Assembly: GCA_965205865.1 (NCBI GenBank)
Contig: CBDBHR010000026.1
Span: 1 to 64,000 of the forward strand
Direction of reading: 5' to 3'
DNA length: 64,000 nucleotides
From: a bacterium
GTDB lineage: Bacteria > SAR324 > NAC60-12
Of this stretch, positions 42,273-61,020 are shown one piece after another. The notes under the pieces are model-generated. The model was not told the origin of the DNA, searched no databases, and saw only the letters and a program-made list of their open reading frames with translations. Numbering within the stretch: position 1 is the stretch's first letter; every line of letters starts with the position of its first letter. The position numbers were made by a program, and so were the translations under genes.

Positions 42273-45200
42273 TTATCCGGAAAAGAGATCGGGTGGCAGA
42301 TCCCGGGTGGAGATCGTCTCCCCGGCTCCCTGGTGGTAGGTCCTGGTGAAGATCGTTTCCGAGAGCCATTTACGGAATGAAGAATTGTCGCTGAACTGCT
42401 TGAAGAGTTCGGTATGGTCGGAAAGCAGGTCGATCACGGCTCGTTCGAGCGCATTGTCGTGTTCGATGCGCGCATTCTGTTTATCGGAGTTTCTCATGGC
42501 ATTCCGATAGGACTGGTCGGCAGCGACCTTCACCGGCAGTTCTTCAACGATTATCTTGCCAATCTTGTCGGTATCCTTCCACTCGATGTTGCCGAACATT
42601 TCATTGAAAGTCTCGAGAATCTTGCTCAGGTGGTCGAGCTCCGAATCCGGCTTCCGGCCACCCTCACTGGTCGGCACCGGATCAATCTCCGCATCCGTAT
42701 CGGGTAGCGCGATTGCCATTGTGGCCTGCACCTCGGCCCGGTAGCTGTCCATGTCGATTGCCTCGAGAATGCCTTTGGAAAGGTCCTGCTCTTCCGGTGC
42801 GGGCAACTTGGGCGTCAGGAAGGTCAAGAAGATGGAACGTTTTTCCCATCCCGCATTTGTATATGGCAGGATCGAGGCGAGGAATCCATAAGTCCGCGTA
42901 AACGCCTTTGCTTTGCCCTTGAAATCGACTTGACCGTCCTCGTCGAGATCGGATTTGTAAATCGCGACACAGACGTCCAGGATCGGGTCGAGTTGATCAC
43001 GGTCAGCCCCTTGCGCGTAAAGCGCGACCAAGGTTTCCACCTGCTCCTGGTTGTAGACCTGATAGCCATCGAGGTCGGTCTGCAGATCGTGCAGCTTGTT
43101 CGGGTCCGTCTCTTCGCTGAGGATTGTGGTCCGATAATAGGGCTCGAACGATTCACTTATGCCCTCCACGTCGTTCATGAAATCCAGCACGAAGCTGTCA
43201 TACTTTTGTGGATGCGCACGATTCAATCGGGAAAGCGTTTGCACCGCTTTGACCCCCGACAGCATTTTGTCCACGTACATCGTGTGCAGGAGGGGTTCGT
43301 CGTAACCGGTCTGGAATTTTTCGGCGACGATCAGGAATCGGTACGGCTCCTCCCTGATCAACTCTGCGATGCGGCTGCCGGGAAACCCGTTCAGGGAGGC
43401 TTCGGTCACCTTCCGGCCGGCATAGTCGTAATCCCCCGAGAATGCCACGATGGCCCGGTAAGCGCTCTTACGCTCCTTTAGATAGTCCTGGAAGGTATGA
43501 AAGTACCGGATCGCCCGCTCAATACCACCAGTCACTACCATGGCCCGCGCCCGACCGCGAATCTTACGGTGCGCAATGACCTGATCATGGAAATGATCGA
43601 TCATGATTTCCGTTTTCTGGCGGATGGCGTGCTCGTGGGACTCGACGTATCGCCGGAGCTTCTTCCTGGCTCGCTTGCTGTCGAACTGCGGATCTTCAGC
43701 CACCGTTTTCATCAGTTGGTAGTAGCTCTCGACGGGCGTATAATGCTGGAGCACGTCCAGGATGAAGCCTTCCTCGATCGCTTGCTTCATCGTGTAACCG
43801 TGAAAGGGGACGTGCCTGACCCGGTCGCCTGCTGACAGGGGACGGCCGAAAATCTCCAGTGTTTTGTTTTTCGGTGTTGCCGTGAAGGCAAAATAGCTGG
43901 CATTCGCCAGCATTTTTCGAGCTTGCATGAGATTGTTGATCCGGTCCTCGAGCGTTTCCTCCTCTTCCTTGCCTGCTCCATCCGATGAGAGCGCCATGTT
44001 CATCTTTGTCGAAGTTTGACCTCCCTGGCTCGAATGGGCTTCATCGATGATGATAGCGAATCTCCGCTGCCGATGCTCGTCGTCGATCTCATCGAGGATG
44101 AAGGGAAACTTCTGCACGGTAGTGATGATGATCTTCTTCCCGTTCTTCAGAAACTGTTTCAGGTCGCCTGAGCGATTGGCATGGCCGACCACCGATGAGA
44201 CCTGGGCGAATTGCTTGATGGTGTCCCGGATCTGTTTATCCAGAACCCGGCGGTCCGTCACCACGATGACCGAATCGAATACCGGCAGACTGGTTTGCTT
44301 CAGTCCGATGAGTTGGTGTGACAACCAGGCAATCGAGTTGCTTTTCCCGGAGCCTGCCGAGTGTTGGATCAGGTAGCGCTCGCCGACGCCTGCAACTTGC
44401 GCGTGGGCCAGCAATTGACGCACGACGTCGAGTTGGTGATAGCGTGGCCAGATTTGCACCCTCTTTTTGTATCCGGTTTTCTCGTCCTTCGTCTCGATAA
44501 TCTGGGCGTAGTTTTGCAGGATGTCACTCAAGCCATCCCGTGTCAGGATGCGTTTCCACAGGTAGTCGCTCTTGAGACCGTTCGGGTTGGGAGGATTGCC
44601 CGTGCCGTTGTTCCAACCCTGATTGAAAGGCAGAAACCACGATGCTTTTCCCTGGAGGTGGGTGCAGAAACGCGCCTCGTGGTCATCCACCGCGAAATGC
44701 GCCACGCAACGACCGAACCCGAAGAGCTTTTCACGCGGGTGGCGATCGCGTTTGTACTGTTGGACGGCATCTTCTACGGTTTGCTTGGTGAGGCTGTTCT
44801 TCAACTCCAAGGTCGCAACCGGCAGACCATTGAGGAAGAGGGCGAGATCAAGCGCCAACTGGGTTTCGTCCAGGCTGTAGCGAAGCTGTCGCGTGACCGA
44901 GAAGCGGTTCAGTTGGTAGAGCGTCCTGGCCTTCTCGTTGCCCTCCGTCGGCGTACCGTAGAAGAGATCGATATGATAAGCGCCGTGCTTGAGACCCTTG
45001 CGCAAGACGTCGATGGTGCCGCGTCTGTTGATTTCTCCTTGCAGTCGCGCCAGGAATTTACGCTGCGCCGGGCCGTCCCGGGCGGGATCAAGCGTTTCGA
45101 AAATCTCGGGTTGCGTCTCCCGTAAAAAGGTAGAGAGCTGAGCCAGATCCACGCAGTACTCGCGGTTGTAGTCGTTCGGGTTGCCCCCGATCCAGCCAGC

Positions 45201-45317
45201 GCCATACATGGCCGCTCGCTCGCTTACCGTACCCTGCTGTGACGGATCACAGGAATGGCCGGTCAGCGCGATGCAGATGAGGTCTTCAAGACCGCGTTCA
45301 GTGGTGTCGGTGGTCAT
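42273..45317 (-). CDS. hsdR: Type I restriction endonuclease subunit R
   Basis: D..LFLNGLP...LELK nuclease, HSAGSGKS, DEAH, FTATP, TGYDEP, QTLSRLNR. Confidence 0.93.
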   Translation of the reverse strand: MTTDTTERGLEDLICIALTGHSCDPSQQGTVSERAAMYGAGWIGGNPNDYNREYCVDLAQLSTFLRETQPEIFETLDPARDGPAQRKFLARLQGEINRRGTIDVLRKGLKHGAYHIDLFYGTPTEGNEKARTLYQLNRFSVTRQLRYSLDETQLALDLALFLNGLPVATLELKNSLTKQTVEDAVQQYKRDRHPREKLFGFGRCVAHFAVDDHEARFCTHLQGKASWFLPFNQGWNNGTGNPPNPNGLKSDYLWKRILTRDGLSDILQNYAQIIETKDEKTGYKKRVQIWPRYHQLDVVRQLLAHAQVAGVGERYLIQHSAGSGKSNSIAWLSHQLIGLKQTSLPVFDSVIVVTDRRVLDKQIRDTIKQFAQVSSVVGHANRSGDLKQFLKNGKKIIITTVQKFPFILDEIDDEHRQRRFAIIIDEAHSSQGGQTSTKMNMALSSDGAGKEEEETLEDRINNLMQARKMLANASYFAFTATPKNKTLEIFGRPLSAGDRVRHVPFHGYTMKQAIEEGFILDVLQHYTPVESYYQLMKTVAEDPQFDSKRARKKLRRYVESHEHAIRQKTEIMIDHFHDQVIAHRKIRGRARAMVVTGGIERAIRYFHTFQDYLKERKSAYRAIVAFSGDYDYAGRKVTEASLNGFPGSRIAELIREEPYRFLIVAEKFQTGYDEPLLHTMYVDKMLSGVKAVQTLSRLNRAHPQKYDSFVLDFMNDVEGISESFEPYYRTTILSEETDPNKLHDLQTDLDGYQVYNQEQVETLVALYAQGADRDQLDPILDVCVAIYKSDLDEDGQVDFKGKAKAFTRTYGFLASILPYTNAGWEKRSIFLTFLTPKLPAPEEQDLSKGILEAIDMDSYRAEVQATMAIALPDTDAEIDPVPTSEGGRKPDSELDHLSKILETFNEMFGNIEWKDTDKIGKIIVEELPVKVAADQSYRNAMRNSDKQNARIEHDNALERAVIDLLSDHTELFKQFSDNSSFRKWLSETIFTRTYHQGAGETISTRDLPPDLFSG

Positions 45318-45836
45318 CAGGGAGGACTCCATTCAAAGCGAACTCCAAAATCGTGAAGCATTTTGAAGGTATTGTCCTATTCAACATTGAACTGCCAGCA
45401 CAAGTTGGGTATTGGCACTCTTCTTTACTTCTGGTTGGAATATTTCCTGAGTCACTACAATTGCGTCGTGAACCATGGCGTAGGCGGCGACCCACCCATC
45501 GGCCACAATGGCAAATTCGTCTTTTGCAGCCTGCAGGAATTGGTCATTGTGCTGGACCCATAACTGCATTTTAGAGAAAGCATCGACGACTTGTTGCTCA
45601 GCAGATGTTAAAAATAATTCTGTTGGCGCCTGACGCACCCAACTGGCTAACTCATCCCCATTCAGTATTTCGTTTCGGACTCGATCAATACTAAGCACTC
45701 GGCCTTGTTGAGAATAGTGTGTCAGGACATCCCAGAAACCCGGACACAGACTCAGAGGATAATAACTGCGATACGCTGCGATGAAAACATTTGTATCTAA
45801 TAAGTATGGTTTAATCAGAGAAATTTGAGACGTCAT
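45317..45836 (-). pseudogene. DUF4411-like PIN-domain protein with 3' frameshift and nonsense codon
   Basis: YLLDTNVFI, CPGFW, ADGWVAAYA; true tail RVPIPNLCWQFNVE*DNTFKML.. lies in another frame ending in TGA that overlaps the hsdR ATG. Confidence 0.75.
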
Positions 45837-47004
45837 AGCTCGATTTCCATCTTCTCCGGCATTGCTTCGAAGGTATCGCCGCGTAAGCCGGTGAGTCCGT
45901 ACGCCTCACGGTATTGTAGACGGCCCTCCCTGACCGCACGAACCACTGCAGCGCCAAAGCGAGGACCAATGCGCCATTTCTGAGTGTTCCAGAAATTTCC
46001 GTTACCCGCATTGCAAAGCTTTTGCTTGCTATGCCCTTCATGTCTTCTGATAGAAATCGAAGAAGGCTTGCTTGTCGATCAACTCGAGATCAAGAGCGCG
46101 ACGCGCGGCCACAAGAGAACTCACTTTGAATTGGAGTGCAATAGACTGATAAGGATTACGGGATTTCCTGGCAGTGGACCAGAAAGAGCGTAATTCATTC
46201 TCAGGAACAAGAAATTCTGCCGTAGCTTGATCACAGAACTGCTCCATGTGATGGGCTGGAGGCTGAAGATTCTCGAGACGCGAAACACCGTCCTTTCCAA
46301 CAAAAATGTGTGCCAACTCCTGCGCCAGTGTGAACATCTGGGCCGCTTTGAAATCGGCGGCATTGACAAAGATGAGTGGAGCATATTCATCTACCAGGGC
46401 GAAGCCTTGAAGTTCTTTAGGATTGAGCTTGCGATGCGTATTGTTTCCTACGATGCCATTGAAGACCACTAGTCCGCCAGCGTCTTCGGCATGTTCTCGC
46501 AGTTTCCAGAGCGCGCTGGTCCAACTGGGTTGATTGGAAAGCCCAATCTCTGGTAAGCTGGAGCGTCTCACCCATGGCCACCGCTACTTGCTTTGCGAAA
46601 AGAGTCCGGTCCATAGACCCCGACGAAACCCATTGGTTCAGTTCCATATTCGATGAGTTCATCTCGCATCCACAACTGACGACGCTGCATGAGATACACA
46701 GTCTCCAGCAGGTCGGGACTCGGATGCGGAGGCAGGTCATCGCTCCAGGTTCGAAAGTCGGTTATCGGCAGGCGGTCCTCGGGCGGCTCTGCAAAATACA
46801 AAAAGCCCAGAGGAGTATGGGTGCGCTGGGCCAGTTTGTCTGACTTGGGCAATGGTGATGCGGCCCGAACATTCCCACTCCGATGCGACTTCCGGCTTTA
46901 TCCGCAACTTGTGAGCCAACTCTTCCTGGTCGATTCCGGCGCGCTCAAGCGCCCATCGCAGAACTTCGGCGTTCCGATCGGATTTTCAGGCGTCGGCCGG
47001 TCAT
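45833..47004 (-). pseudogene. XRE-HTH + ImmA/IrrE metallopeptidase, multiply frameshifted
   Basis: PEVLRWALERAG, PLGFLYF..PP..LPITDFRT, GIVGNNTHRKL, FTLAQELAH (HExxH mutated), FKVS. Confidence 0.85.
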
Positions 47005-47040: not shown

Positions 47041-47115
47041 TTATTCCTCGTCTGGTAATTCTACTCTTACATCATGGACGTCGAGCTTGCACGTGACCAG
47101 GTCGGCAATGCGTGT
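47041..47115 (-). pseudogene. Relic hsdS 3' end (scar)
   Basis: TRIADLVTCKLDV..ELPDEE* vs functional HsdS TRLIADVVTGQLEV. Confidence 0.75.
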
Positions 47116-47660
47116 GGTATCCGACGTGTTGTGGAATTGATAAACAATGATTTTCCGCAGGATGTTTCGAGTGACACGGGCAGTCGTATCTTCGTCGGCC
47201 AGAGTGAGGAGTTGTGGAGCACGGTGTCCGGCTCCCGTTTCTTGCCAGTCATGAGGAGTAGCGTAATTTTTGTGAGAGAACCGGTAACGTTCATCGGCAA
47301 AAATTAAAGTGAAAGCTGTCTCCCGCAGCATAAACCAACCGGAACGAGTACTGAGTTTCGCCGGTATCGGTATGAATCGTCAGTTCGGCTTCTATCTCAC
47401 GACCTCTTGGCCGGACCATCGTGCAAAAGCATGCTGGCTCCCCCCTGTTGACTCACGTAAAGTTGAAGATTGTCGGTGGGTCCGCCAACATCCAACTCAT
47501 CATACGAAAGAAGGAAACAAAGTTGGACTTACCGGCGCCATTGGGACCGATGAGCACCGGTTAAGGATTTCGATACAGGCTTGAAATCTCCAGTCGGCCC
47601 CGCGCCTTCAATGTTTTAAATCTTGATTGAGGGTTATGCTATCGAGCCCGGGTTTTTCAT
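47116..47660 (-). pseudogene. Decayed N-terminal half of an ABC/SMC-like (COG4637-type) ATPase
   Basis: VLIGPNGAGKSNFVSFF Walker A, QQGGA..LLHDG, YQFHNTS across several frameshifts. Confidence 0.75.
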
Positions 47661-47822: not shown

Positions 47823-48422
47823 GTTGGCCCGCCCGTCAGGGAGCGGCACGTCCAGCAAATCAAAATATTTAGGGTAATCAAGCATGAGCAGAACATCCTC
47901 GTCGTTCACCTGTTCGACGATGACACCGTCTTGTCTGGTGGGCATACTCTCTTTTTTCCTCATTACTTTCAATCTCTTATGTCTCCAGCTACGGTTTCCA
48001 TTTCGAATCCGCCAGGACTTTGACTTCGTGACCGAAAACACCTTCTACCTTCCAGGTATCAACGCCTTGGAACCGTTCCGGAAACTGCTCGCATCATCCT
48101 CGAAATTCTCGAAAAGAAAGGATATCCGACGGCGCGCGGCTCCCTGTAGTTGACCTTGAATTCGTCCATTCGGTTTCATGCGACAACTTGCGCAGTTCAA
48201 ACCGACGAGATATTCGGTGGAACTGGAGTCCATGTCGTCACCTCTTCAAGCATACTTTGTTGGAATCACCACTTCATTACTCCATGGTTTATACTTTTTT
48301 CAAAGATAAATCGGTAAAGGCGCATAAAAATAAAAGATATAAAACTATAAAAAACAGTTACTTATAAAGTCGATTATACCTGAATTATGCCAAAATTATG
48401 CTTTTTGCTCCTATTAATATTT

Positions 48423-48846
48423 TCAGGCATAATTCGAAATGGGCGATTTCCCCGGATACCAGCGAGCAGCTTTGGTGTTCCCGATTTTTTGGATCTGTCC
48501 ATTCATTCTCAAATCTTGAAGCAATTTCTGAACCTGGACATATGAAAGGGCTGGCTGGACCTGAACGAGTTCCTTCAACTGACTGCCTTCATTCCGATTG
48601 TCTTTAATGTGTTTCAGTAGCAACTCCTTATTCGTCTCGCGGTCCAACCCACGCTTGCGCGTATAGACCCCCGCCTTGCCAAGGTACCGGTAAAACCGCC
48701 GGGAGAGCAGCAGTCGTACGCCCCGCCCCCGTCCTACGCGCTCGATGATTCCCTGTTCCAGCAGATGATTAGCACTCAATCGGAGGTAGTCCGGAACATC
48801 TTGCTCGCGGTGGACGAGATCGACCACCAGTTAGTCGTGATGACCA
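48423..48846 (-). pseudogene. C-terminal wHTH remnant of an ATP-binding (RecG-C/AlbA-HATPase-type) protein
   Basis: LLEQGIIERVGRGRG..LSRRFY...YTRKRGLDRETNKELLLKHI; N-terminal domains missing. Confidence 0.5.
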
Positions 48847-48892: not shown

Positions 48893-49615
48893 TCATGATT
48901 GCGGTTCCCGTCTTACACTAAGTTGTCGATTTATATCAGACGTATTCATGAGTACCGAAATATCGCCAATTCTCCCAATATCAAGAGTAATGGGGTTGCA
49001 ACCCATGGTGCCAGTATCTATAGCGAGACGAAACTCTTTTTGGTATTCATACTCCTTGCGCTTAGTGAATATCGATTCAATTTCTGACTTTGCGGGTGGT
49101 GTGCCGACTTCAGCATCATAATATCTCACCAGCCCGCCACAGATTCCATACCCTCTTTTTTCAGCAGCGACTTTAACTCGCTTCAAAAACTCTCGAGTAT
49201 TTGTAATTACAACTGCATGCCTTCCGAGCTTTATGCAATCATCCGGTATTTCAAGTTGCTTTTTGAATGCGTGGACATTATCATCTGATATGCTTTGGAA
49301 GTCACCACTATGACCCGCATACATACAAAACACATTAATGTGATCAAACCATCTTGGGCGCATGATGATCGGAGCGGCAAACTCGTGCCCCGCCATTGTG
49401 ATTCTGCTAGATTCTCCAGTTTCTATATTTGTGGCTGTCAATTCAACTATTAAGCCATCTTTCTGGAGCATGATCGCACCTTCATCTTCATCTCTACGAC
49501 CGTCACGATCCTCGATTCTCTTAAAGTAGGAAAGCTTGTGTGCGTACAGCTTCCCCCTAACAAAATTGTCAGCGTATCTTGCTTCCTGAAAAACTTTCAC
49601 AAGGAAAATTATCAT
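48893..49615 (-). CDS. Hypothetical cargo protein, DUF2971-like motif pattern
   Basis: GKLY..LSYF, D..EG, NVFCMY, FTKRKEYEYQKEFR; AT-richer than hsdR. Confidence 0.6.
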   Translation of the reverse strand: MIIFLVKVFQEARYADNFVRGKLYAHKLSYFKRIEDRDGRRDEDEGAIMLQKDGLIVELTATNIETGESSRITMAGHEFAAPIIMRPRWFDHINVFCMYAGHSGDFQSISDDNVHAFKKQLEIPDDCIKLGRHAVVITNTREFLKRVKVAAEKRGYGICGGLVRYYDAEVGTPPAKSEIESIFTKRKEYEYQKEFRLAIDTGTMGCNPITLDIGRIGDISVLMNTSDINRQLSVRREPQS

Positions 49616-49749: not shown

Positions 49750-51006
49750 TCATACGATCGATACGCCGTGCTCAAGCAGGTCATCTGGATTGTCTTCCAC
49801 AACGAGCGAATCGACTTCGGACATCGTTGCTACTTGGCGCACTTCCAGTTGGCCCGTGACCACGTCGGCAATCAAACGGGTGCGATATTCGCCCAGCAAC
49901 TCGATCTGGCGGCGGGCACAGTCGATGGCAGTATCAATGTCGGTAGTTATTTTGTCAAGATACTCTGCAATGGCCGCCTGCTCAGGGAAGGGAGGGACGG
50001 GGGCTAATCTTTGATGAGTATCTTCACGCCCTAGCCCGGGTATAGTTGAATCTTTTGTTACATCATCAAGCCTGAGCCAACCCAAGAGATAGAATAGCCA
50101 TCGCAAGTTATTTCTCGAATATCGCTCATCGACAAAGTATGTGGTGTCGATTGCGAATAAAGGTTCTTCAACAAAATTTACCTTGCCAAATGAACCCTTG
50201 CGGCCAATTACGATACACGGCGACATCGTGTTCGCAGAAGAATGGTTGCCAACAAGTCCATTTGAACCATAAACAGGCACATCGCCATCTGCTCGCATAT
50301 CAGCCGTGAGCGAGTCACCATAAGCAAAGTAGCAAATTGACTTCAGCCGTCGCACTTCCCAATGCGCCGGCACATCACCGAGCCACTCGACGCCGGAGGG
50401 ATTGAGGCGGACGTTGGGGTTGAGACCCCGGGTGACGGAACGGTGAATGAGGACCTGCTTCTGCTCCTCCAGCAGCTTGACCAGCTTCTGCCGGGCACTG
50501 ATGTACCGGCGAATACGCCCGTCAACAAAATCCAAGTAACGAACGATAGCCGCCTGCTCGGGGAGGGGAGGGACAGGGGCTAATCTTTGATGAGTTTCTT
50601 CACGCCCAAGCCCAGGTATAGCTGAATCTTTTGTTACATCATCAAGCCTGAGCCAATCCAAGAGATAGAATAGCCATCGCAAATTATTTCTAGAATATCG
50701 CTCATCGACAAAGTATGTGGTGTCGATTGCGAATAAAGGTTCTTCAACATAATTTACTTTGCCAAATGAACCCTTGCGACCAATTACGATGCACGGCGAC
50801 ATCGTGTTCGCAGAGGAATGGTTGCCAACAAGTCCATTTGAACCATAAACAGGCACATCGCCATCTGCTCGCATGTCAGCCGTGAGCGAGTCTCCATAAG
50901 CAAAGTAGCAAATTGACTTCAGCCGTCGCATCTCCCAATGCACAGGTACATCGCCTAGGATCGATACACCGGAGGGTTTGTAGGAGGGGTAAGTCTTCAA
51001 TTCCAT
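49750..51006 (-). CDS. hsdS: Type I RM specificity subunit with two near-identical TRDs
   Basis: YPSYKPSGV..LGDVP.HWE, PP..EQAAI (x2), LIADVVTG. Confidence 0.93.
   Translation of the reverse strand: MELKTYPSYKPSGVSILGDVPVHWEMRRLKSICYFAYGDSLTADMRADGDVPVYGSNGLVGNHSSANTMSPCIVIGRKGSFGKVNYVEEPLFAIDTTYFVDERYSRNNLRWLFYLLDWLRLDDVTKDSAIPGLGREETHQRLAPVPPLPEQAAIVRYLDFVDGRIRRYISARQKLVKLLEEQKQVLIHRSVTRGLNPNVRLNPSGVEWLGDVPAHWEVRRLKSICYFAYGDSLTADMRADGDVPVYGSNGLVGNHSSANTMSPCIVIGRKGSFGKVNFVEEPLFAIDTTYFVDERYSRNNLRWLFYLLGWLRLDDVTKDSTIPGLGREDTHQRLAPVPPFPEQAAIAEYLDKITTDIDTAIDCARRQIELLGEYRTRLIADVVTGQLEVRQVATMSEVDSLVVEDNPDDLLEHGVSIV
49973..50941. repeat. 393-bp direct repeat within hsdS (49973-50365 and 50549-50941)
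   Basis: Near-identical DNA, offset 576 bp. Confidence 0.95.
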
Positions 51007-53540: not shown

Positions 53541-54719
53541 GTGTATTGCCTGTTTAATACATTGTATTATTGGTCATTTGGTAGACAGGTTTGAGTTTGT
53601 TGATAATTTCTTCGGCAGTTTTAGTCCAGACATAGGGTTTTGGGTTGCGATTGTGTGTCTCGATGTAACTATGGATGGCTTCGGTCAACTCGAGCACGCT
53701 TTTGAAGGCGCCTCGTCGAATCCGTTCTGCAGTGATCTTGCCAAAAAAGCGTTCCACCATGTTCAGCCATGAGGAGGAAGTAGGAATGAAATGCGGGTGA
53801 AATCGCGGGTGTTTTTTGAGCCATTCTTTCACCTTAAGATGTTTGTGGGTGGCGTAATTGTCCAGGATCAAGTGTACCTGCAGTTGCTTCGAGGTAGTCT
53901 TGTCAATAAGACGCAGGAAGCGCAGATACTCTTGGTGTCGGTGCCGTTTTTCACAGCGAGCGAGCACTTCCCCTGTCTGCGTATTCAAAGCAGTAAACAG
54001 ACAGCAGGTGCCATGACGGATATAATCATGAGTTCTGGTGCCATTGCGCCCTGGTTTCAGTGGCAGACCTGGCTGGGTGCGATCGAGTGCCTGGATTTGT
54101 GATTTCTCATCGACGCTCAAGACCAGCGCTTTCTCAGGAGGATTCATGTACAAACCGATGACATCTTTCAGTTTCGCAGTGAAATGCTTATCATGCGACA
54201 ACTTAAATGTTTTTTCCAGATGAGGCTTGAGGCGATGGGCCTTCCATACTTTACCGACGGTTGTCTTGCCTACGCCAACTGCCTTGGCCATCGATCGCGT
54301 GCTCCAATGGGTACGGTCCTCAGGCTTCTCTTCAATGGTTTTCTTCACAATCTCCTCGATTTTATCCGCTCCATAAATGCGTGTCCTGCCAGGCCGCGGA
54401 TCATCATTGAGACCTGTTATTCCTTTTTCAACAAAGCGCCGTCGCCACTTTCCAACGGCATTACCGCTGGTTCCAAGCGTTTTGGCAATTTCTTGATTCT
54501 TAAGGCCATCAGCAGCCAACAGGATGATGCGCGCACGACGAGTGTCTCGCATCGCTCCGGTATGACGGCGTGCGGTTTTGCCCAATTCATCCCGTTCTTC
54601 CCGGGTCAGTTTTATACTTGGTGCTTTTCTCATGCTGTCTCCATATATGCAAAAAAAAGGACAGCTCGTAGTATAGCAAACCAAGGATTTTTTTACACAT
54701 TAATAAAAGAGCGACACAC
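53541..54719 (-). mobile_element. IS630-family insertion sequence
   Basis: TA duplication (53539-40, 54720-21) at a CTAG target; imperfect TIRs GTGTATTGCC../GTGTGTCGCT.. Confidence 0.93.
53554..54633 (-). CDS. IS630 transposase
   Basis: HTH; VDEKSQIQALDR, DYIRHG, LDNYATH, SWLNMVE (DDE). Confidence 0.95.
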   Translation of the reverse strand: MRKAPSIKLTREERDELGKTARRHTGAMRDTRRARIILLAADGLKNQEIAKTLGTSGNAVGKWRRRFVEKGITGLNDDPRPGRTRIYGADKIEEIVKKTIEEKPEDRTHWSTRSMAKAVGVGKTTVGKVWKAHRLKPHLEKTFKLSHDKHFTAKLKDVIGLYMNPPEKALVLSVDEKSQIQALDRTQPGLPLKPGRNGTRTHDYIRHGTCCLFTALNTQTGEVLARCEKRHRHQEYLRFLRLIDKTTSKQLQVHLILDNYATHKHLKVKEWLKKHPRFHPHFIPTSSSWLNMVERFFGKITAERIRRGAFKSVLELTEAIHSYIETHNRNPKPYVWTKTAEEIINKLKPVYQMTNNTMY

Positions 54720-56217
54720 TAGCGCTTCGTCTTCAACTTGATCTTGGAGCCGTTTGATGACATTCAGTCGCTCTTGAACTATTTCGTGGTAACGCATCGC
54801 TTCAATGGCATCAATATCAGACAGATACTCAAGAAACACATCCAAATTGGATGCGTCAATGGTATCCAAAATTTTCAGAGCATCGTTCATCTTGAGCGTT
54901 TCAAAAGCAAGTATCCCGTTGGCATACAAACCTGGCTTGTGTGCCTCGTCTACTCCCGATTGGTCGATTTCGGCAAAGATCTTCTTTGCAGTTTTCTTCA
55001 GTGATTGTGGTCTCAGTCCTTCGTACCATTCTTTGATATGAGGGTTGGAAGACAGGGCCATATCCAGTCCTTTCTTCTCCTTGAGCTTATTGGTTTCCGT
55101 CCAAATGTACCGGAGTTCCCTTCCTAAGAAATTTTTGACCGCGAGATAACGCGGGTCATCCTCGGAAATCCTTTGGCGGCTGGAAGTGGCAATGTCTTGC
55201 TCATCATCGTCGTCGAGGAAGTCGGCGTGAATTTCGCCATAGATGTATTTGGTGATCATTCCACCGAGGCGATATTCCTGTAGAATATCCTCTTGAGCCA
55301 CTTTACCCCGCACGACAACCGTGATTTTGTTCAGATTGTCGTCTTGTTCGTTGTCGCCCTGCTTCCTGTCGTCCAGATCGTTGGAACGACGGGCGATGGC
55401 GATCCAGCCGCTGATCTCGTATTCGCCTTCCTGGATGGCGTTGCCGCGCAAATCAAAGCGATTATCTCGGGTATAGGACAACCTTTCGCGGTTGTCTTCG
55501 TCTTTGTCCAAATTTTTACAGTGTTGGGCGTAATCGTATTTCCCGTATTGGAAAAGGAATCGAGCTTTGTGAAAATAATCTCTGTCAGCAAAAGTTATCT
55601 TTTCGTCATTAACAAAGACGTGAAAACCCGCTGAATCTTCGATAATACTGAATCTCCGGGCGATTCTTTTTTTGAGGCCATTTATTGAAGCTTGCGTCAG
55701 CCGTAGTTTCTTCAAATCCGTAATTTTAATAATGGTCCCATGTGATGGAATATCCACATCGAAGGTGACGGATTCCGGCTCGTATTGTTTCGGAGATGAT
55801 GGATCTTCGCTATGTATCGCGTCCTTGATTTTTTCGGCATCCATTAAAAAGGATACTTTCTCACTACCTTCTTTACGGCTATAGACAGAGATTTTATTTG
55901 CGATGGAGAACAGAGATAGTTTCCCAATGCCTTTCCTACCCATCGGTTTTCTGCCGCCGGGCGTGCGGAAATCAGGCATGTTCCTTTTCTGGTATCCGAC
56001 AAGCAGGTACTTGTCATTGATGTCGGTCCGATCCATTCCATGACCATTATCGGAAACTGCGATCGATTTCTGCTCAACGTTGAAATCAATCTTAACCTCG
56101 GTCGCGTCGGCGTCCCAAGCGTTGGCAATCACTTCCGCGATCACCGCCGGGGTATTGCTATACAGGTTGAGTCCCAGATGGTTGAGGACATTCAAACTGA
56201 TGCTCATTATGTACCTG

Positions 56218-57261
56218 CTATCGGACATTCGCTCCCTCCATGATGGATTTTCCAATCGCTTCAGCAAGTTTGACCGGCACCGCGTTGCCAATATGCCGGG
56301 CCATCTGGCGAATGACGAGTGGTTTGCCTTTCTCGATGAGTTTATACTTGCGAGGAAAAGTTTGTAGCAGAGCCGCTTCCCGGACGGAAATCGACCGATG
56401 TTGTCGAGGGTGTCCAAACCGCCCGGTACTGTAATAGCAAAATTGCGTGGTGATAGTGGGTGCCAAAGCATTCCAGCGCATTCGTCCGTAGGATGCCGGA
56501 TAATATGCCTTCCGGTGGCATTCGTTGATGATGTCCTTCTCCCAATCCTTCCAGGACCCGCCCGGTTTTGACTGGAGAATTCGCTGGCGGTTTTTTGGGG
56601 ACAACGGCAACGTGGCGTGAGCGGGGTCATCGGGCGAGGTCTGTCCGTCTTCAAGTGTGGGCAAACTTTGGATAAAGTCGGCAACGGTTGTTTTCTCCCC
56701 CCTTGGACAGGGAAGAGAAATCACGCCCAATCCGGATGCCAGCAGCACCAGGCGCTTCCTGTTTTGCGGAACGCCGTAATTCGCGCACGGCAAAATATCA
56801 TAGTCGTACTGGTAACCCAAGAGGTTCAACGTTGAGAGCAATTCGTCAAATGCCTTCTGTTTGACGAGTCCGGGGACATTTTCCATCGAAATCAAGTCGG
56901 GAGTTCCCTCTTTGACAAGGCTGGTGAATTTTCTGACTAAGGAGTAGTTATCCACTTTGGAATTTTGCGTCCTTCGGGTATGCGCGGAGAAGGGCTGGCA
57001 AGGAGCGCAACCCACCATCACCGTAACATCCGCGTCCTTGTAATATGGCGCAATGTCGAGGAAGTGAATGCCGCAAACATCGGTAGCGATAAATTCGGAT
57101 CCATGGTTGTTCGTCTCGTACGCATACCGACATGATGGATCAATGTCAAAACCCGCCTTGACGTCTATGCCAGACATACCGAGTCCATGAGTCAATCCAC
57201 CGATTCCACAAAAGAGATCTACAGCGTGAACTCTCCACAAGCCGTTGTTTTTTTTACGCAT
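56218..57261 (-). CDS. DNA (cytosine-5)-methyltransferase
   Basis: DLFCGIGG, GCAPCQ, ENV, PQNRKR, REAALLQTFP, IGNAVP. Confidence 0.95.
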   Translation of the reverse strand: MRKKNNGLWRVHAVDLFCGIGGLTHGLGMSGIDVKAGFDIDPSCRYAYETNNHGSEFIATDVCGIHFLDIAPYYKDADVTVMVGCAPCQPFSAHTRRTQNSKVDNYSLVRKFTSLVKEGTPDLISMENVPGLVKQKAFDELLSTLNLLGYQYDYDILPCANYGVPQNRKRLVLLASGLGVISLPCPRGEKTTVADFIQSLPTLEDGQTSPDDPAHATLPLSPKNRQRILQSKPGGSWKDWEKDIINECHRKAYYPASYGRMRWNALAPTITTQFCYYSTGRFGHPRQHRSISVREAALLQTFPRKYKLIEKGKPLVIRQMARHIGNAVPVKLAEAIGKSIMEGANVR

Positions 57262-57312: not shown

Positions 57313-57366
57313 TCAGCCGCCGACAATGTCGCCCAACAAACCATTGGTCTCCCGTTCCAGTGTCAT
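57313..57366 (-). pseudogene. Relic hsdM 3' end (scar)
   Basis: TLERETNGLLGDIVGG* vs functional HsdM TLEQETEGLLNEIIGKV*. Confidence 0.8.
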
Positions 57367-57851
57367 TTAACTTTCAAGGCTAAATCAGGAAATTTTTTAC
57401 TTGATTGGGCTTCGAACATTTTTGTAAATTTTTCACTAGGATAGAAGCAGAAAAAAATCCAGACAAATCTCTGTACAATGGAATTACAAGGCCAACCAAA
57501 ATAGAGGAGTTCATCATGTTTTCTCTTCCTCTTGAATTTCCTATCGTTTTTGATTCAATTAAACAACAGTTTTCTGTTTCGGGTTGGACCACCGCGCATA
57601 CCATGGTCCTGGGAGAGCAAAACTATGCCAGGGGAATCATGAAGTTTCCTCGGCTCCAAAAACTGATGCCCAAGGCTGGTATCGTGATTCAGTCCGTTCC
57701 AAAGGCAAACGCTTTGTCAAATGCCCGGGATCAGAATGTGCTATTCTTAGTTTATGCATAAGGGAAATGGTTCAATTTTTGCCCATTGTCCTGAGACCTT
57801 CGATTTTTTCGACGCTTTATCGACAAGGATTCCACCAGGAAAAGCATTTTA

Positions 57852-58262
57852 TTGATAAGGAGAGTTGAAATGGTGACGCGCCCACACATGCGGAAGGTTA
57901 GATCAAAGGAAACGAAGCCAGAACGCGCACTAAGAAAGCTTATCTGGTCGATGGGATATCGAGGATACAGGAAGAATTGCGGGAATCTGCCTGGAAGGCC
58001 TGATGTGGCGTTTACCCGCCGCAAGCGCGCAATCTTTCTTCATGGGTGTTTTTGGCATGGACATTCATGCAAAGCAGGTAGGAACGTTCCGCAAACTAAC
58101 ACCACGTATTGGATACCGAAATTACGAAGGAATAAAGAAAGAGATCGTGATGACCTTAAAAAATTGAAATCGGAGCATTGGCGGGTCATGGTGGTTTGGG
58201 AGTGTGAATTGGGCGAGCTTGAGCAAGTTAAGTCCGGACTGTCCAAATTTTTACGTGAATAG
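57852..58262 (+). CDS. vsr: Very short patch repair endonuclease
   Basis: M..VRSKETKPE, LPGRPD, FLHGCFWHGH, VWECE; start may be 57870 or 57888. Confidence 0.92.
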   Translation: MIRRVEMVTRPHMRKVRSKETKPERALRKLIWSMGYRGYRKNCGNLPGRPDVAFTRRKRAIFLHGCFWHGHSCKAGRNVPQTNTTYWIPKLRRNKERDRDDLKKLKSEHWRVMVVWECELGELEQVKSGLSKFLRE

Positions 58263-58340
58263 TATATAGTTTCCCCCAAATCCCAATAAATGGAGCATCA
58301 ATGCAAGCATGATGACGAAATGGATTCTCTGAGCAACGTT

Positions 58341-58907
58341 TCAGGATCGGACTTTTCCCTGCCAACCGCCTTTACATTTACCACTCCAAATTTTTTCAAA
58401 CGGATGCCGTCGGTTGTCTGGGTATGGTGTCATTTTCCTTCTCTGAAACGCTTGGTGAATCCACTCGCGAATGTCCTCCCTTTGGTCTGTCCAGTCATAG
58501 ACGCAGGCATAGGGCGCCCTTTCCTTGCAGTTATCCGCGAGTCTTGGTGGTATCAGGTGTGGATCATACATTGTTCTTCCAAAATCCGGATGTTTGGGCA
58601 ACATGATACCCAACAATCCACATCTGGGATTTTTTTTCGTGGCTCTCAAACTGGCGCCTATCTCCCAATCCACGTGCATCCGTTTCCAGGTACAGGGGCC
58701 AATCAGCACAACCGTCACGGTTACTTCGGCGATGTAGTGCTCACGAATTCTTTGAAAAATCGCCTCCACGTCAAGGTTATTGATTTCCCCGATTTTGACG
58801 GACCTGTCCAGCATTTCGTCCTTCATCATTTTGACGAATTGGTTTTTGTATTTTTGATCCCCATGGTGAAAACTGATGAATACTTTGTGTTTTGGGATTT
58901 GGTCCAT
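58341..58907 (-). CDS. TIR-domain protein (DUF1863/ThsB-like)
   Basis: HKVFISFHH, VTVVLIG..TWKR.HVDWEI (catalytic Glu retained); AAGGAG SD. Confidence 0.88.
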   Translation of the reverse strand: MDQIPKHKVFISFHHGDQKYKNQFVKMMKDEMLDRSVKIGEINNLDVEAIFQRIREHYIAEVTVTVVLIGPCTWKRMHVDWEIGASLRATKKNPRCGLLGIMLPKHPDFGRTMYDPHLIPPRLADNCKERAPYACVYDWTDQREDIREWIHQAFQRRKMTPYPDNRRHPFEKIWSGKCKGGWQGKVRS

Positions 58908-59037
58908 CTTCGCTCTCCTTCAACCCGTTCCAAGTCGGTCAAGTCTTCCGGGCCGGCAATCTCTGCCAGCATGCGATTGTAGTTTCGTAAATCTTGCTGC
59001 AGCGTTCAGAGAGGGCGACTCATCCATGGCCCTCGGG

Positions 59038-61020
59038 TTACACTTTTCCGATGATCTCGTTCAGCAACCCCTCGGTTTCCTGTTCCAGCGTCAGAATGTC
59101 TCCCCGGATCTCCTCCAGCGTACGTAAAGGCTGCGGCTTGTAGAAGTGGCGGGTGAAGCTGATCTCGTAGCCGGTCTTGATGCTGTCTGCGACATACCAG
59201 GCATCCGGCGCGTGGGCCAACACCTCGCGTTGCAGGAAACTCTCTACGCTTTTTTCCAGGAGTGGCACCTGCTCGCTGTCTCGCAGATCGGGGTCGGGTT
59301 CGTACTCGACCACGGCGGAACGGCCGGCGATTAAGGTCTCGAACAACCCACGCATGGGGTCGGGTGCCGCGCCTTTCTCGTGAATCTTTTTGATGACCGG
59401 CAGGGCGGTCTCCGAGCAGCGTGATCCCTCTTTGAGTATTTTGATCTCCCTGGCGCCGTAGGCGCGTTCGGAGTCGATGCCTTCAAGGCGTAACGGACGC
59501 TCGATCGTGACTTTCCAATATCCGAACGCTTCGTTTGGATAGATTTTCGACTGTTCGGTTTCCTCGAACTTCAGAAAAGTATCGCAGATACGCTGGATAT
59601 CTGCCGCTGACAACTCGCAGTTCTTTTTACCAAGATTCTTGCGTAGTGGTTTGAACCAACGGGTCGCGTCGATGAGTTGGATTTTGCCCCGGCGTTGCGC
59701 GGGCTTACGGTTACCAAGCATCCAGATATAGGTGGCAATGCCCGTGTTGTGGAACATGTTCAGAGGCAAGGCGACGATGGCCTCCAACCAGTCGTTTTCG
59801 ATGATCCAACGTCGAATATTGCTTTCCCCCTGACCCGCATCACCAGTGAACAATGACGAACCATTATGGACTTCCGCAATCCTGCTGCCGAGGTGCGAAT
59901 CCCGCTTCATCTTGCTCAGCATGTTGGCCAGAAACATCATCTGGCCGTCGCTGGAACGCGTAACGAGGCTGTATTCCGGATCGCCGGCATGCTTGATCAG
60001 AAAGCGGTGGTCGGACATCTCTTTTTTTCCTCCCATCCGCTCGAGTTCCGTTTTCCAGGACTTTCCGTAGGGTGGATTGGAAAGCATAAAGTCGAACTCG
60101 CGTGCCGGGAACGCGTCTCTGGACAGGGTCGAGCCGAATTTCATGTTCTCGGCCTCGCTCCCCTCCCCTTTGAGGATGAGATCCGCCTTGCTGATGGCGA
60201 AGGTTTCGGGATTGATCTCCTGCCCATAGAGGTGAACGGATGCTTCCTTTCCGTATTTCGTGGCAAGCCCGGCCAGTGTTTCTCCGGCAACGGTCAGCAT
60301 CCCGCCGGTGCCACAAGCGCCGTCATAGACGAGGTAGGTCCCGGAGCGGATCTTTTCCTTAATGGGCATGAAAATCAGATGGGCCATCAGTTTTACGACA
60401 TCACGGGGCGTGAAGTGCTCACCGGCTTCCTCGTTGTTCTCTTCGTTGAAACGCCTGATCAACTCCTCGAAGATGGTCCCCATCGAATGGTTGTCGAGGC
60501 CGGGAAGACGCGGGGAACCGTCCCGGGACAAGATGGGTTTGGGGCTCAGATTGATCGAATTGTCGAGGAATTTTTCGATGAGGAATCCGAACACGTCGGC
60601 TTCGATCAGGGTGGGGATTTGATTACGGAACTTGAACTTGTCGAGGACCTCCTGAAGGTTCGCTGAGAAACCATCCAGATAGGTTTCGAAATCGGTTTTG
60701 AGTTGCTGTTGCCTGGATCGGTTGGAGAGATCGCGCAAGCAAAAAGCCGAGGTGTTGTAGAATGCTTCGCCGGATGCCCGACATAACGCTGCGTGCTGAT
60801 GGACGACGCCTGCCGCGTCGAGTTGCTGCTTCATTCTGAGCACAGCCTCTTTCGTCGGTTCGAGAACCGCATCCAGACGCCGAATAACCGTCATGGGCAG
60901 AATGACGTCCCGATACTTGCCCCGCACGTAGACGTCGCGCAACACATCGTCGGCTATATTCCAGATAAAGTTGCTGATATTCAAGTTGCTTTCCACTGTT
61001 CCTACCGCGATTCTCTCCAC
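59038..61020 (-). CDS. hsdM: Type I RM methyltransferase subunit
   Basis: FIWNIADDVLR, GEHFTPRDV, DGACGTGGML, NPPY; exact start uncertain. Confidence 0.95.
   Translation of the reverse strand: MERIAVGTVESNLNISNFIWNIADDVLRDVYVRGKYRDVILPMTVIRRLDAVLEPTKEAVLRMKQQLDAAGVVHQHAALCRASGEAFYNTSAFCLRDLSNRSRQQQLKTDFETYLDGFSANLQEVLDKFKFRNQIPTLIEADVFGFLIEKFLDNSINLSPKPILSRDGSPRLPGLDNHSMGTIFEELIRRFNEENNEEAGEHFTPRDVVKLMAHLIFMPIKEKIRSGTYLVYDGACGTGGMLTVAGETLAGLATKYGKEASVHLYGQEINPETFAISKADLILKGEGSEAENMKFGSTLSRDAFPAREFDFMLSNPPYGKSWKTELERMGGKKEMSDHRFLIKHAGDPEYSLVTRSSDGQMMFLANMLSKMKRDSHLGSRIAEVHNGSSLFTGDAGQGESNIRRWIIENDWLEAIVALPLNMFHNTGIATYIWMLGNRKPAQRRGKIQLIDATRWFKPLRKNLGKKNCELSAADIQRICDTFLKFEETEQSKIYPNEAFGYWKVTIERPLRLEGIDSERAYGAREIKILKEGSRCSETALPVIKKIHEKGAAPDPMRGLFETLIAGRSAVVEYEPDPDLRDSEQVPLLEKSVESFLQREVLAHAPDAWYVADSIKTGYEISFTRHFYKPQPLRTLEEIRGDILTLEQETEGLLNEIIGKV

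What the first reader, a model, noticed from the sequence alone, without database searches (positions are those of the whole stretch)
42273..61020. Type I RM locus as a cargo-accreting array marked by relic hsd termini
Seen: hsdM, hsdS and hsdR are spread over ~19 kb. Four short diverged hsd fragments sit at cargo boundaries: hsdM 3' (57313-57366) before the C5-MTase, hsdS 5' (52913-53011) coupled to the REase stop, and hsdS 3' ends at 47760-47822 and 47041-47115, each preceding another cargo unit. M-S interval relics are M-end/S-start and S-R interval relics are S-ends, so gene order is respected. Inference: cargo modules were captured serially from homologous RM loci by recombination at conserved hsd ends, giving an integron-like stack without an integrase. 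Cargo towards hsdR is the most decayed.
Basis: partly seen in the sequence, partly recalled or inferred. Interest (0 to 1): 0.8.

Follow-up and report, generated by a model that had tools for sequence, protein, structure and literature searches.

The report
Recombination scars in a defence-gene stack
A type I restriction-modification operon has been stretched to 19 kb by other defence genes, and short leftover ends of older hsd genes between them record how the genes were added one after another.

Summary
hsdM, hsdS and hsdR are intact and span 18.7 kb. All four relics are found again with profiles of this hsd family: 6.1, 13.1, 27.6 and 12.6 bits, against a decoy maximum of 5.8. The hsdM 3' relic is marginal on its own.

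Of 65 loci of the family with a measurable hsdM-hsdS interval (window included; 64), 4 carry such relics. There are 15 relics. All lie between hsdM and hsdR on the coding strand, all are gene ends facing an interval, and all are in gene order (P=6e-14).

Three of the four window relics abut a truncated cargo gene. Five cargo units have relatives in or beside the hsd loci of other phyla; four sit in the same interval there.

A junction of the hsdS start joined to the hsdM end recurs in two loci and in 21 of 180 short database proteins.

My reading: cargo was stacked serially from homologous loci, by recombination anchored in one hsd gene and joined illegitimately at the other end. The mechanism is inferred. 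There is no integrase or attC-like site, so the integron likeness is loose. Embedding is known; these scars turned up in none of five literature searches.

The parts
59038..61020 (-). hsdM, intact (660 aa)
   Evidence: Pfam N6_Mtase and HsdM_N. PADLOC MTase_I at 793 bits. Family profile positions 4-654 of 657.
58913..59005 (-). Remnant: last ~30 codons of a 160-aa gene that precedes the TIR gene in other loci
   Evidence: blastx against L035 16850-17332 aa 131-160, 77% identity, E 4e-7; also L046. It begins 33 bp after the hsdM stop codon.
58341..58907 (-). ThsB-like TIR protein (188 aa), cargo
   Evidence: Pfam ThsB_TIR, E 1e-16. Relatives at 40-59% identity in the hsdM-hsdS interval of L001, L005, L012, L035, L046 and L059, and after hsdR in L072.
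57852..58262 (+). vsr (very-short-patch repair endonuclease); the only cargo gene on the other strand
   Evidence: NCBIfam TIGR00632, 140.7 bits, above its cut-off.
57380..57604 (-). 74-aa ORF, unknown, possibly not a gene
   Evidence: No hit in Pfam, PADLOC or NCBIfam. No relative in the 80 loci.
57313..57366 (-). hsdM 3' relic (17 codons plus stop)
   Evidence: Best non-self tblastn hit of HsdM in the window, E 0.18. Family profile positions 639-653, 6.1 bits against a decoy maximum of 5.8. Marginal on its own.
56218..57261 (-). C5 cytosine DNA methyltransferase (347 aa)
   Evidence: Pfam DNA_methylase, E 1e-55. NCBIfam dcm, 127.7 bits.
54693..56213 (-). Type II restriction enzyme of the BbrUII/HgiDII family, N-terminal three quarters (start approximate)
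   Evidence: NCBIfam NF050001 profile positions 1-482 of 659, 535.6 bits, from residue 158 of ORF 54693-56684. PADLOC REase_II.
53554..54684 (-). IS630-family transposase, inserted in the restriction enzyme gene
   Evidence: NCBIfam transpos_IS630, 281.5 bits. Pfam DDE_3. The ends of the element were not resolved.
53008..53532 (-). Same restriction enzyme, C-terminal quarter
   Evidence: NF050001 profile positions 485-659, 142.6 bits.
52913..53011 (-). hsdS 5' relic (32 codons); its start codon overlaps the restriction enzyme stop by 4 bases
   Evidence: Family profile positions 1-29, 13.1 bits. tblastn E 0.31. DNA repeat family D2. Overlap read.
52696..52916 (-). Remnant: last 33 codons of a ClpP/SDH-type protease gene, plus the DNA that follows it
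   Evidence: blastx against L026 11966-12982 aa 305-337 of 338, E 8e-5. blastn against L026, 70.6% over 221 nt, E 5e-20. The L026 gene has Pfam SDH_protease.
51079..52488 (-). 469-aa cargo protein of unknown function (helical N-terminal half, two OB folds in the C-terminal half)
   Evidence: No family hit. 107 relatives, about 466 aa, unnamed. AlphaFold2 pLDDT 82. Foldseek hits to SSB, RPA, Teb1 and HIN domains.
49750..51006 (-). hsdS, intact (418 aa), with two nearly identical target-recognition domains
   Evidence: Pfam Methylase_S. PADLOC Specificity_I, 309 bits. Internal 300-nt repeat at 95% identity.
48893..49615 (-). 240-aa cargo protein, unknown
   Evidence: 42% identical to L002 18211-18906, which also lies between hsdS and an hsdS 3' relic. 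The Atlas gave only hypothetical-protein clusters.
48423..48827 (-). 134-aa ORF, unknown
   Evidence: No hits.
47829..47933 (-). Internal fragment of a Schlafen/AlbA_2-type gene, fused to the next relic inside ORF 47634-48041
   Evidence: blastx against L005 19359-20825 aa 164-198 of 488, E 1e-6; also L004. Those genes have Pfam SLFN_AlbA_2 and HATPase_c_4 and sit between hsdS and hsdR.
   Evidence: Family profile positions 423-447, 27.6 bits. 78-83% protein identity to the HsdS C-termini of many family loci. DNA 83-84% to L076 and L045.
47107..47310 (-). N-terminal fragment of a HEC-01A-type gene, fused to the next relic inside ORF 47041-47331
   Evidence: PADLOC PDLC04174 profile positions 7-66 of 264, E 3e-9.
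47041..47115 (-). hsdS 3' relic no. 2 (24 codons plus stop)
   Evidence: Family profile positions 422-442, 12.6 bits. DNA repeat family D3.
45381..46852 (-). Four-ORF module next to hsdR: 94-aa ORF, M78 peptidase, 76-aa ORF, DUF4411
   Evidence: Pfam Peptidase_M78 and DUF4411. The same module occurs in L045 (hsdS-hsdR interval), L069 (hsdM-hsdS interval) and L076 (after hsdR). Together with hsdR it is collinear with L045 at 66.6% DNA identity over 4516 nt.
42273..45332 (-). hsdR, intact (1019 aa)
   Evidence: Pfam HSDR_N, SWI2_SNF2, ResIII and T1R_D3. Family profile positions 1-1000 of 1005.

Best explanation
The locus is one working-looking type I restriction-modification operon (hsdM, hsdS, hsdR). 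It belongs to a family that has spread across many phyla. Its two inner intervals are landing sites for other defence genes.

The window holds the largest stack seen in this family.
- hsdM-hsdS interval: a ThsB-like TIR module, a type II m5C restriction-modification module with vsr, and an OB-fold protein.
- hsdS-hsdR interval: a 240-aa protein, two gene fragments, and an M78/DUF4411 module.

Shown:
- Short ends of earlier hsd genes of the same family lie between these units, in gene order.
- Three of the four relics are fused to truncated cargo genes.
- Relatives of the cargo sit in or beside loci of the same family elsewhere.

Inferred mechanism:
- DNA from a homologous locus with different cargo enters the cell.
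- It pairs by homologous recombination inside one conserved hsd gene.
- Its other, non-homologous end is joined illegitimately, probably at a few shared bases, inside the recipient's gene end or cargo. This is homology-facilitated illegitimate recombination.
- The incoming gene copy becomes the intact gene and the new cargo lies next to it.
- The last or first 15-65 codons of the recipient's old gene stay behind as a scar between new and old cargo.
- Repetition stacks the units, with the youngest next to the intact gene.

On this reading, the type II module flanked by an hsdM 3' relic and an hsdS 5' relic is the oldest content of its interval. The module next to hsdR, preceded by hsdS 3' relic no. 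2, is the oldest of the other interval.
For: (1) The relics are real. See the scores, and the independent DNA-level detection.

(2) They recur. 4 of 65 loci with a measurable hsdM-hsdS interval carry relics: the window, L002, L059 and L065.
- Of the 19 extra hits of 6 bits or more that lie outside the intact genes (3 more overlap them), 15 lie between hsdM and hsdR on the coding strand, which is 8.5% of the search space.
- 4 lie outside it, and one of those is a true hsdR start at a contig end.
- The decoys gave 1 such hit.
- Binomial P = 6e-14.

(3) All 15 are gene ends that face an interval, and they sit in the matching interval. hsdM 3' and hsdS 5' relics are in the hsdM-hsdS interval. hsdS 3' and hsdR 5' relics are in the hsdS-hsdR interval. 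No hsdM 5', hsdR 3' or internal piece was seen.

(4) The polarity of the fused cargo fragments fits.
- After the hsdS 5' relic comes the 3' remnant of a protease gene.
- Before hsdS 3' relic no. 2 comes the 5' fragment of a HEC-01A gene.
- Before relic no. 1 comes a fragment of an AlbA_2 gene, which in L004 and L005 follows hsdS.

(5) In L002 (twice) and L059, an hsdS 5' relic is joined directly to an hsdM 3' relic. A donor piece ending in its hsdS start and joined to the recipient's hsdM end would give exactly this. In L059 the donor-side cargo is the TIR gene, which in L001 and L012 lies directly before hsdS.

(6) The same kind of fusion is found in 21 of 180 short database proteins examined, with several different junction positions. 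Some lie on contigs of 1.4-5.5 Mb.

(7) Relic-bearing intervals are longer: 6 such intervals against 113 others, Mann-Whitney P = 9e-5.

(8) None of the 65 loci has a second full-length or long partial hsdM or hsdS in tandem.
Against: - No donor-recipient pair was seen, so neither the anchor crossover nor microhomology at any joint is shown. The shared residues at the junctions were judged by eye.
- The hsdM 3' relic of the window scores only 6.1 bits, and nothing recognisable is fused to it.
- The polarity argument also fits a deletion model.
- vsr, the usual partner of the C5-methylase, lies on the far side of the hsdM relic and on the other strand. That does not fit a clean unit boundary.
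- Most loci with cargo have no relic: 41 of 44 with an hsdM-hsdS interval of 500 bp or more. So clean replacement or complete decay is the rule and scars are the exception.
- Meiothermus plasmid L084 stacks two modules with no scar.
- Relics in L059 and L065 are closest to their own resident genes, rank 1. That also fits a local duplication.
- The three hsdS 3' relics start within 4 profile positions of each other (422-425). That is tighter than random joints would give.
Confidence: 0.5

Rival explanations
1. Two-step origin. Whole or large parts of other type I loci of the family were inserted beside or inside the resident one, by any route. Large deletions later removed the redundant hsd genes. 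Only ends that abut retained cargo survived.
For: - Deletions running from inside a cargo gene to near the end of the next hsd gene give the same fusions and the same polarity as seen.
- The 33-bp gap between the hsdM stop and the remnant of the 160-aa gene is most simply explained as a deletion.
- The window shows other decay, namely the IS630 element in the restriction enzyme.
Against: - The window alone would need about five tandem loci, and four deletions that each left exactly one intact hsdM, hsdS and hsdR in order.
- None of the 65 loci shows an intermediate with a second complete or long partial hsdM or hsdS.
- No relic of an hsdM 5' end or an hsdR 3' end was found among the 15 relics, although tandem operons would have them.
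- The relics in the loci are at most 65 codons long. Random deletion end points would give a wide range of lengths.
Confidence: 0.25
2. Cassette array with a recombination module. The join of the hsdS start to the hsdM end, about 290 bp and often an in-frame mini-gene of 91-114 codons, is a maintained linker between cassettes. Cassettes move by ordinary homologous recombination within these linkers. Alternatively they move as circles that integrate by one crossover. The linker also keeps translation coupled from one cargo gene to the next.
For: - 21 of 180 short proteins examined are such fusions: 20 with an N-terminal HsdS hit and 1 with a central-type hit. Most begin within a few residues of the HsdS start, and nearly all end at the normal end of HsdM.
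- Two of them lie on contigs of the same length (5,462,556 bp), possibly one contig.
- At 27 columns conserved in full-length HsdM, the fusions deviate in 3.4% of cells, against 2.2% for real genes.
- In this family the last cargo gene usually overlaps the hsdS start by 4 bases, so gene ends must travel with the cargo.
Against: - The sample is biased. Only intact ORFs that score well against a profile were seen.
- The L059 copy and one of the two L002 copies are out of frame, and the window's hsdM relic is a 17-codon stub.
- The junction positions differ.
- Conservation may only mean that the copies are recent.
- No genomic context was available beyond L002 and L059.
Confidence: 0.15
3. The relics are chance similarities, or they are silent hsdS copies of a phase-variable shufflon.
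For: The plain tblastn E-values are weak, 0.18 to 14. Truncated hsdS genes are well known from phase-variable systems (search listings).
Against: - Profile scores of three relics are far above the decoys.
- The position and strand enrichment has P = 6e-14.
- The relics lack any target-recognition domain and lie in direct, not inverted, orientation.
- No recombinase is present.
Confidence: 0.02

Closest known systems
Defence genes embedded in type I R-M operons. I read sections 10-11 of Payne et al. 2024 (bioRxiv 10.1101/2024.01.29.577857), passages of the TgvAB paper in Vibrio cholerae VPI-2 (PMC11411939), and passages of the paper on DarTG2 in the EPEC RptR island (PMC12255303). PrrC/EcoprrI and the rlo genes of Campylobacter I know only as cited in those papers.
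   Same: Cargo nested between hsdM, hsdS and hsdR, nearly all in the same orientation. The cargo types match too: TIR, GmrSD, DarTG, SIR2-HerA, ABC/AAA ATPases and toxin-antitoxin pairs.
   Different: Those papers leave open how embedding happens. They speak of a 'genomic sink' and a 'potential recombination hotspot'. Here, leftover hsd gene ends and truncated cargo genes mark the joints, and up to three or four units are stacked in one interval.
Integrons
   Same: A one-directional array of promoterless-looking cassettes that accumulate at one site.
   Different: There is no IntI integrase and no attI or attC sites. The joints are not site-specific. The flanking genes are themselves the homology. 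Cassettes can be added on either side of hsdS.
Homology-facilitated illegitimate recombination in naturally transformable bacteria (concept recalled; no paper on it was read, and one search listed only papers that mention the term)
   Same: One homologous anchor plus one illegitimate joint adds foreign DNA beside the anchor. This would explain the relic next to truncated donor genes.
   Different: It is known from experiments with marker DNA. It has not been shown for these loci, and no joint microhomology was verified here.
Phase-variable type I systems with extra partial hsdS genes (search listings only)
   Same: Partial hsdS sequences lie next to an intact hsdS.
   Different: Those copies carry target-recognition domains, lie inverted, and work with a site-specific recombinase. 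The relics here are 20-30 codon ends without such domains, lie in direct orientation, and include hsdM and hsdR ends.

Membership tests
Type I restriction-modification system | HsdM with an N6-adenine methylase domain and the HsdM N-terminal domain | tested here: met
   Pfam N6_Mtase E 5e-53 and HsdM_N E 9e-23. PADLOC MTase_I, 793 bits.
Type I restriction-modification system | HsdS with two target-recognition domains and conserved spacer regions | tested here: met
   Pfam Methylase_S, two stretches. PADLOC Specificity_I. Family profile positions 3-451 of 469.
Type I restriction-modification system | HsdR with nuclease and SF2 motor domains | tested here: met
   Pfam HSDR_N, SWI2_SNF2, ResIII and T1R_D3-like. 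Family profile positions 1-1000 of 1005. Enzyme activity was not tested.
Embedded defence cargo (guilt-by-embedding sense) | Other defence genes nested between the genes of one system, in the same orientation | tested here: met
   All cargo ORFs except vsr are on the hsd strand. TIR, type II R-M, HEC-01A fragment and M78/DUF4411 were identified.
Integron | IntI tyrosine recombinase next to the array | tested here: not met
   No integrase or recombinase family was found in the window locus, nor in 161 of 161 cargo ORFs of the family loci.
Integron | attC-type imperfect inverted repeats at each cassette boundary | tested here: not met
   The repeat scan of 42000-61300 found no recurring inverted repeat at unit boundaries. 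No Rfam family was found in 40000-64000.
Phase-variable hsdS shufflon | Inverted partial hsdS copies with target-recognition domains, plus a recombinase | tested here: not met
   The relics are in direct orientation and cover only profile positions 1-29 or 422-447. No recombinase is present.
Homology-facilitated illegitimate recombination product | A duplicated end of the recipient gene beside a truncated donor sequence | tested here: met
   Three of the four window relics abut truncated cargo genes. hsdS 5' joined to hsdM 3' is seen in L002 and L059.
Homology-facilitated illegitimate recombination product | Microhomology at the illegitimate joint, and a mosaic anchor gene | not testable with these tools
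   This needs donor and recipient sequences from close relatives. No locus is closer than 81% HsdM identity.

The most novel reading that the evidence does not exclude
In this widely transferred type I family, the join of the hsdS start to the hsdM end is not debris. It is a maintained linker module, often a 91-114-codon mini-gene. It serves as the homologous-recombination site between cassettes and keeps translation coupled across them. The operon would then be an integrase-free cassette array that runs on host RecA alone. hsdS 3' and hsdR 5' ends would play the same role in the second interval.
Probability: 0.2. Interest if true: 0.8.

Novelty: new variant of a known kind. Interest (0 to 1): 0.58.

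Why it matters
Defence genes nested inside restriction-modification operons are now used to find new immune systems. How they get there is still open: the papers I read speak only of a 'genomic sink' or a 'potential recombination hotspot'.

The scars give a readable record of single acquisition events. They show which end was homologous, where the other end was joined, and in what order the units arrived.

That makes the question testable in two ways. One is comparing close strains. The other is a simple transformation experiment.

The scars also give a cheap search key, namely short hsd gene ends out of place. It finds stacked cargo and the truncated genes beside it, and it flags unknown cargo such as the 469-aa OB-fold protein and the 240-aa protein as defence candidates.

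Tried and rejected
- Plain DNA search of the whole locus against plasmids gave one 160-nt hit.
- E. coli genomes and plasmids hold the family: 67 of 5426 genomes and 188 plasmid records. The four loci I fetched (L081-L084) have no relics. A tblastn with a fusion protein against plasmids gave 673 places in 656 records, and I could not single out extra copies.
- The ends and target duplication of the IS630 element were not resolved.
- A 50-nt similarity between the central region of hsdS and the restriction enzyme's C-terminal piece (family D5) lies in frame within the enzyme's own profile match. I set it aside as chance.
- The Atlas gave nothing for the 469-aa protein and only hypothetical-protein clusters for the 240-aa protein.
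- The test for selection on the fusion mini-genes was inconclusive: 3.4% against 2.2% mismatches, P = 0.03, on a biased sample.
- The upstream ORFs of the window have no relatives in the 80 loci.
- I repeated it with lighter filters, so very weak relics may have been missed.
- The interval table mis-measured L002, giving 2701 instead of 4803 bp, because a strong relic was taken for the gene end. This was corrected.
- No complex prediction was run.

Full report
WHAT IS THERE

On the minus strand the window holds an intact hsdM (59038-61020), hsdS (49750-51006) and hsdR (42273-45332). Each has full-length matches to Pfam, PADLOC and NCBIfam models. Each covers a profile of its own family almost end to end. 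The locus ends 98 bp from a convergent recD. No tRNA gene or Rfam family is nearby.

Between hsdM and hsdS (8.0 kb), in order of transcription:
- the last ~30 codons of a 160-aa gene (58913-59005)
- a ThsB-like TIR gene
- vsr, on the opposite strand
- a 74-aa ORF
- the hsdM 3' relic
- a C5-methylase
- a BbrUII/HgiDII-family type II restriction enzyme, cut in two by an IS630 element (profile positions 1-482 and 485-659)
- the hsdS 5' relic, whose start codon overlaps the enzyme's stop by 4 bases
- the last 33 codons of a ClpP/SDH-type protease gene
- a 469-aa protein of unknown family

Between hsdS and hsdR (4.5 kb):
- a 240-aa and a 134-aa ORF
- an ORF made of a Schlafen/AlbA_2 gene fragment fused to hsdS 3' relic no. 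1
- an ORF made of the first ~70 codons of a HEC-01A-type gene fused to hsdS 3' relic no. 2
- a four-ORF M78-peptidase/DUF4411 module

ARE THE RELICS REAL?

The window's own proteins were searched against all six frames of the 64-kb window.
- The fourth relic is weak (E 14).

I then fetched 80 loci encoding relatives of HsdM, at 53-81% identity, from many phyla and mostly from metagenome-assembled genomes.
- From them I built profiles of 55 HsdM, 38 HsdS and 44 HsdR.
- I scanned all stop-to-stop fragments of the window and the loci, with reversed sequences as decoys.
- Decoy maxima were 5.8 bits for M, 5.8 for S and 10.5 for R (next best 4.9).
- The window relics score 6.1, 13.1, 27.6 and 12.6 bits. 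Nothing else in the window reaches 6 bits.

The hsdM relic is therefore marginal by score. It does end with a stop codon where the family's HsdM ends. The hsdS relics also appear as DNA repeat families. Relic no. 1 matches family hsdS 3' ends at 83-84% DNA identity.

IS IT A GENERAL FEATURE?

- In this family, 44 of 65 loci have an hsdM-hsdS interval of 500 bp or more, and 33 of 54 have such an hsdS-hsdR interval. The window has the longest hsdM-hsdS interval.
- The 161 cargo ORFs of the loci are mostly recognisable defence or toxin-antitoxin families or have no Pfam hit. They include TIR, GmrSD, SIR2-HerA, DarT-macro, AlbA_2, AAA_21, KAP and toxin-antitoxin pairs. None is an integrase or recombinase. 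One is a weak IS200-type hit.
- Extra hsd matches of 6 bits or more: 15 lie between hsdM and hsdR on the coding strand, 3 overlap the intact genes, and 4 lie elsewhere. One of those 4 is a true hsdR start at a contig end. The decoys gave 1. Binomial P = 6e-14.
- The 15 relics belong to four loci: the window, L002, L059 and L065.
- All are ends that face an interval: hsdM positions 584-655, hsdS 1-29 or its internal repeat of that motif, hsdS 422-453, and hsdR 1-45.
- All sit in the matching interval.
- Intervals with relics are longer than the rest (P = 9e-5).

WHERE DID THE PIECES COME FROM?

- The two hsdS 3' relics of the window fit the family consensus. They do not fit the resident gene, which ranks 31st and 36th of 38. 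They are not duplicates of the resident hsdS.
- Relics in L059 and L065 are closest to their resident genes (rank 1), so the donor and recipient there were close, or the duplication was local.
- Five cargo units of the window have relatives in or beside family loci of other phyla:
  - The 160-aa/TIR pair: the TIR gene lies in the hsdM-hsdS interval of L001, L005, L012, L035, L046 and L059, and after hsdR in L072. The 160-aa partner was matched only in L035 and L046.
  - The protease: same interval in L026.
  - The 240-aa protein: hsdS-hsdR interval in L002, there too followed by an hsdS 3' relic.
  - The AlbA_2 gene: hsdS-hsdR interval in L004 and L005.
  - The M78/DUF4411 module: hsdS-hsdR interval in L045, collinear with hsdR at DNA level, but hsdM-hsdS interval in L069 and after hsdR in L076.

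THE TELLING JUNCTION

- In L002 (twice) and L059, an hsdS 5' relic is joined directly to an hsdM 3' relic. That is the end of the interval joined to its beginning.
- A search of 62-200-aa proteins with the L002 fusion ORF gave 1443 hits. A profile of 14 fusions gave 6349 hits among 8000 scored candidates.
- Of the 180 proteins listed by the two searches:
  - 21 are an HsdS start followed by an HsdM end.
  - 3 have the normal order.
  - 120 are HsdM ends that start at residue 5 or earlier, most likely gene fragments.
  - 36 carry other N-terminal extensions. One of these carries Pfam PF03235 (GmrSD_N) in the listing.

- The fusions have several different junction positions. Some lie on contigs of 1.4-5.5 Mb, so they are not contig-end artefacts.

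HOW IT MOST LIKELY WORKS

The structures fit a donor fragment from a homologous locus. The fragment recombines homologously inside one hsd gene and is joined illegitimately at its other end, within the recipient's gene end or cargo.

This explains five things in one step:
- the intact gene next to the new cargo
- the truncated donor gene at the joint
- the short recipient relic beyond it
- the order of relics
- the hsdS-start/hsdM-end joints

It remains an inference. I saw no donor-recipient pair and verified no microhomology.

A two-step route, with insertion of whole loci and then deletions, gives the same polarity and is not excluded. But none of the 65 loci shows an intermediate, and no hsdM 5' or hsdR 3' relic was found.

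A third reading treats the hsdS-start/hsdM-end join as a maintained linker. The fusions keep HsdM's conserved columns almost as well as real genes do: 3.4% against 2.2% mismatches. The sample is biased, and the out-of-frame copies speak against strict maintenance.

WHAT DOES NOT FIT NEATLY

- vsr lies across the hsdM relic from its expected partner, the C5-methylase.
- The three hsdS 3' relics start within four profile positions of each other.
- Most cargo-bearing loci, and the two-module stack on the Meiothermus plasmid, carry no scars.

COMPARISON WITH WHAT IS KNOWN

- Embedding of defence genes in type I operons is established: Payne et al. preprint, sections 10-11 read; TgvAB, passages; DarTG2/RptR, passages.
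- Those texts leave the mechanism open.
- Five full-text searches listed no paper describing relic hsd termini at cargo boundaries. Papers on truncated hsdS concern phase-variable inverting systems. I read only the listings and abstract starts that the tool returned for these searches. Supplements of the preprint were closed.
- The integron analogy fails on both defining features: no integrase and no attC.

VERDICT

It needs correcting in detail, because the joints are illegitimate, the events are not site-specific and the integron likeness is loose.
- The locus is a new variant of a known kind. Its added value is the scars, which make the mechanism of embedding testable.

Noticed in passing
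window 49970-50269 and 50546-50845: The two target-recognition domains of hsdS are 95% identical over 300 nt. The enzyme should therefore read a symmetric bipartite site. The duplication looks recent.
   Followed up: partly
window 53008-56684: The BbrUII/HgiDII-type restriction enzyme is split by an IS630-family element, while its C5-methylase and vsr keep complete ORFs. The type II module is probably methylase-only now.
   Followed up: partly
window 40369-42175: recD is read as two overlapping ORFs, 40369-40869 and 40721-42175, matching profile positions 8-104 and 111-597 of TIGR01447. This is a frameshift, a sequencing error or a pseudogene. recB (36725-40372) is whole.
   Followed up: no
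window 51079-52488: The 469-aa cargo protein belongs to an unnamed family of about 466 aa. The few named members are from Chloroflexi and Dehalococcoidia. It has invariant Cys and His residues near the N-terminus and two C-terminal OB folds like those of single-strand DNA binders. It is a candidate defence gene by embedding.
   Followed up: partly
window 45381-46852; L045 16529-17955; L069 6066-7720; L076 18394-19820: The same M78-peptidase/DUF4411 module sits in three different positions relative to the hsd genes: hsdS-hsdR interval, hsdM-hsdS interval, and after hsdR. In L069 its first two ORFs are one 390-aa gene.
   Followed up: partly
L035 11569-16376: The hsdM of this locus is interrupted by about 4.8 kb between profile positions 525 and 499. 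The insert was not examined.
   Followed up: no
L083 (Synechocystis PCC 6803 plasmid pSYSG) 11992-13950: The family's hsdM is broken near codon 59. The locus carries DUF433/DUF5615, nucleotidyltransferase/zeta-toxin and DarT-macro cargo. It would be a handy model strain for experiments.
   Followed up: no
protein P0254: A 152-aa database protein carries Pfam PF03235 (GmrSD_N) in its listing and has 68 residues ahead of its HsdM C-terminal match, which starts at profile position 576. This is another cargo-fragment/relic fusion, but it lies on a 591-bp contig.
   Followed up: no
window 61002-61823: A 273-aa ORF with no family hit overlaps the hsdM start by 19 bases on the same strand. It has no relative upstream of hsdM in the 80 loci.
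   Followed up: partly
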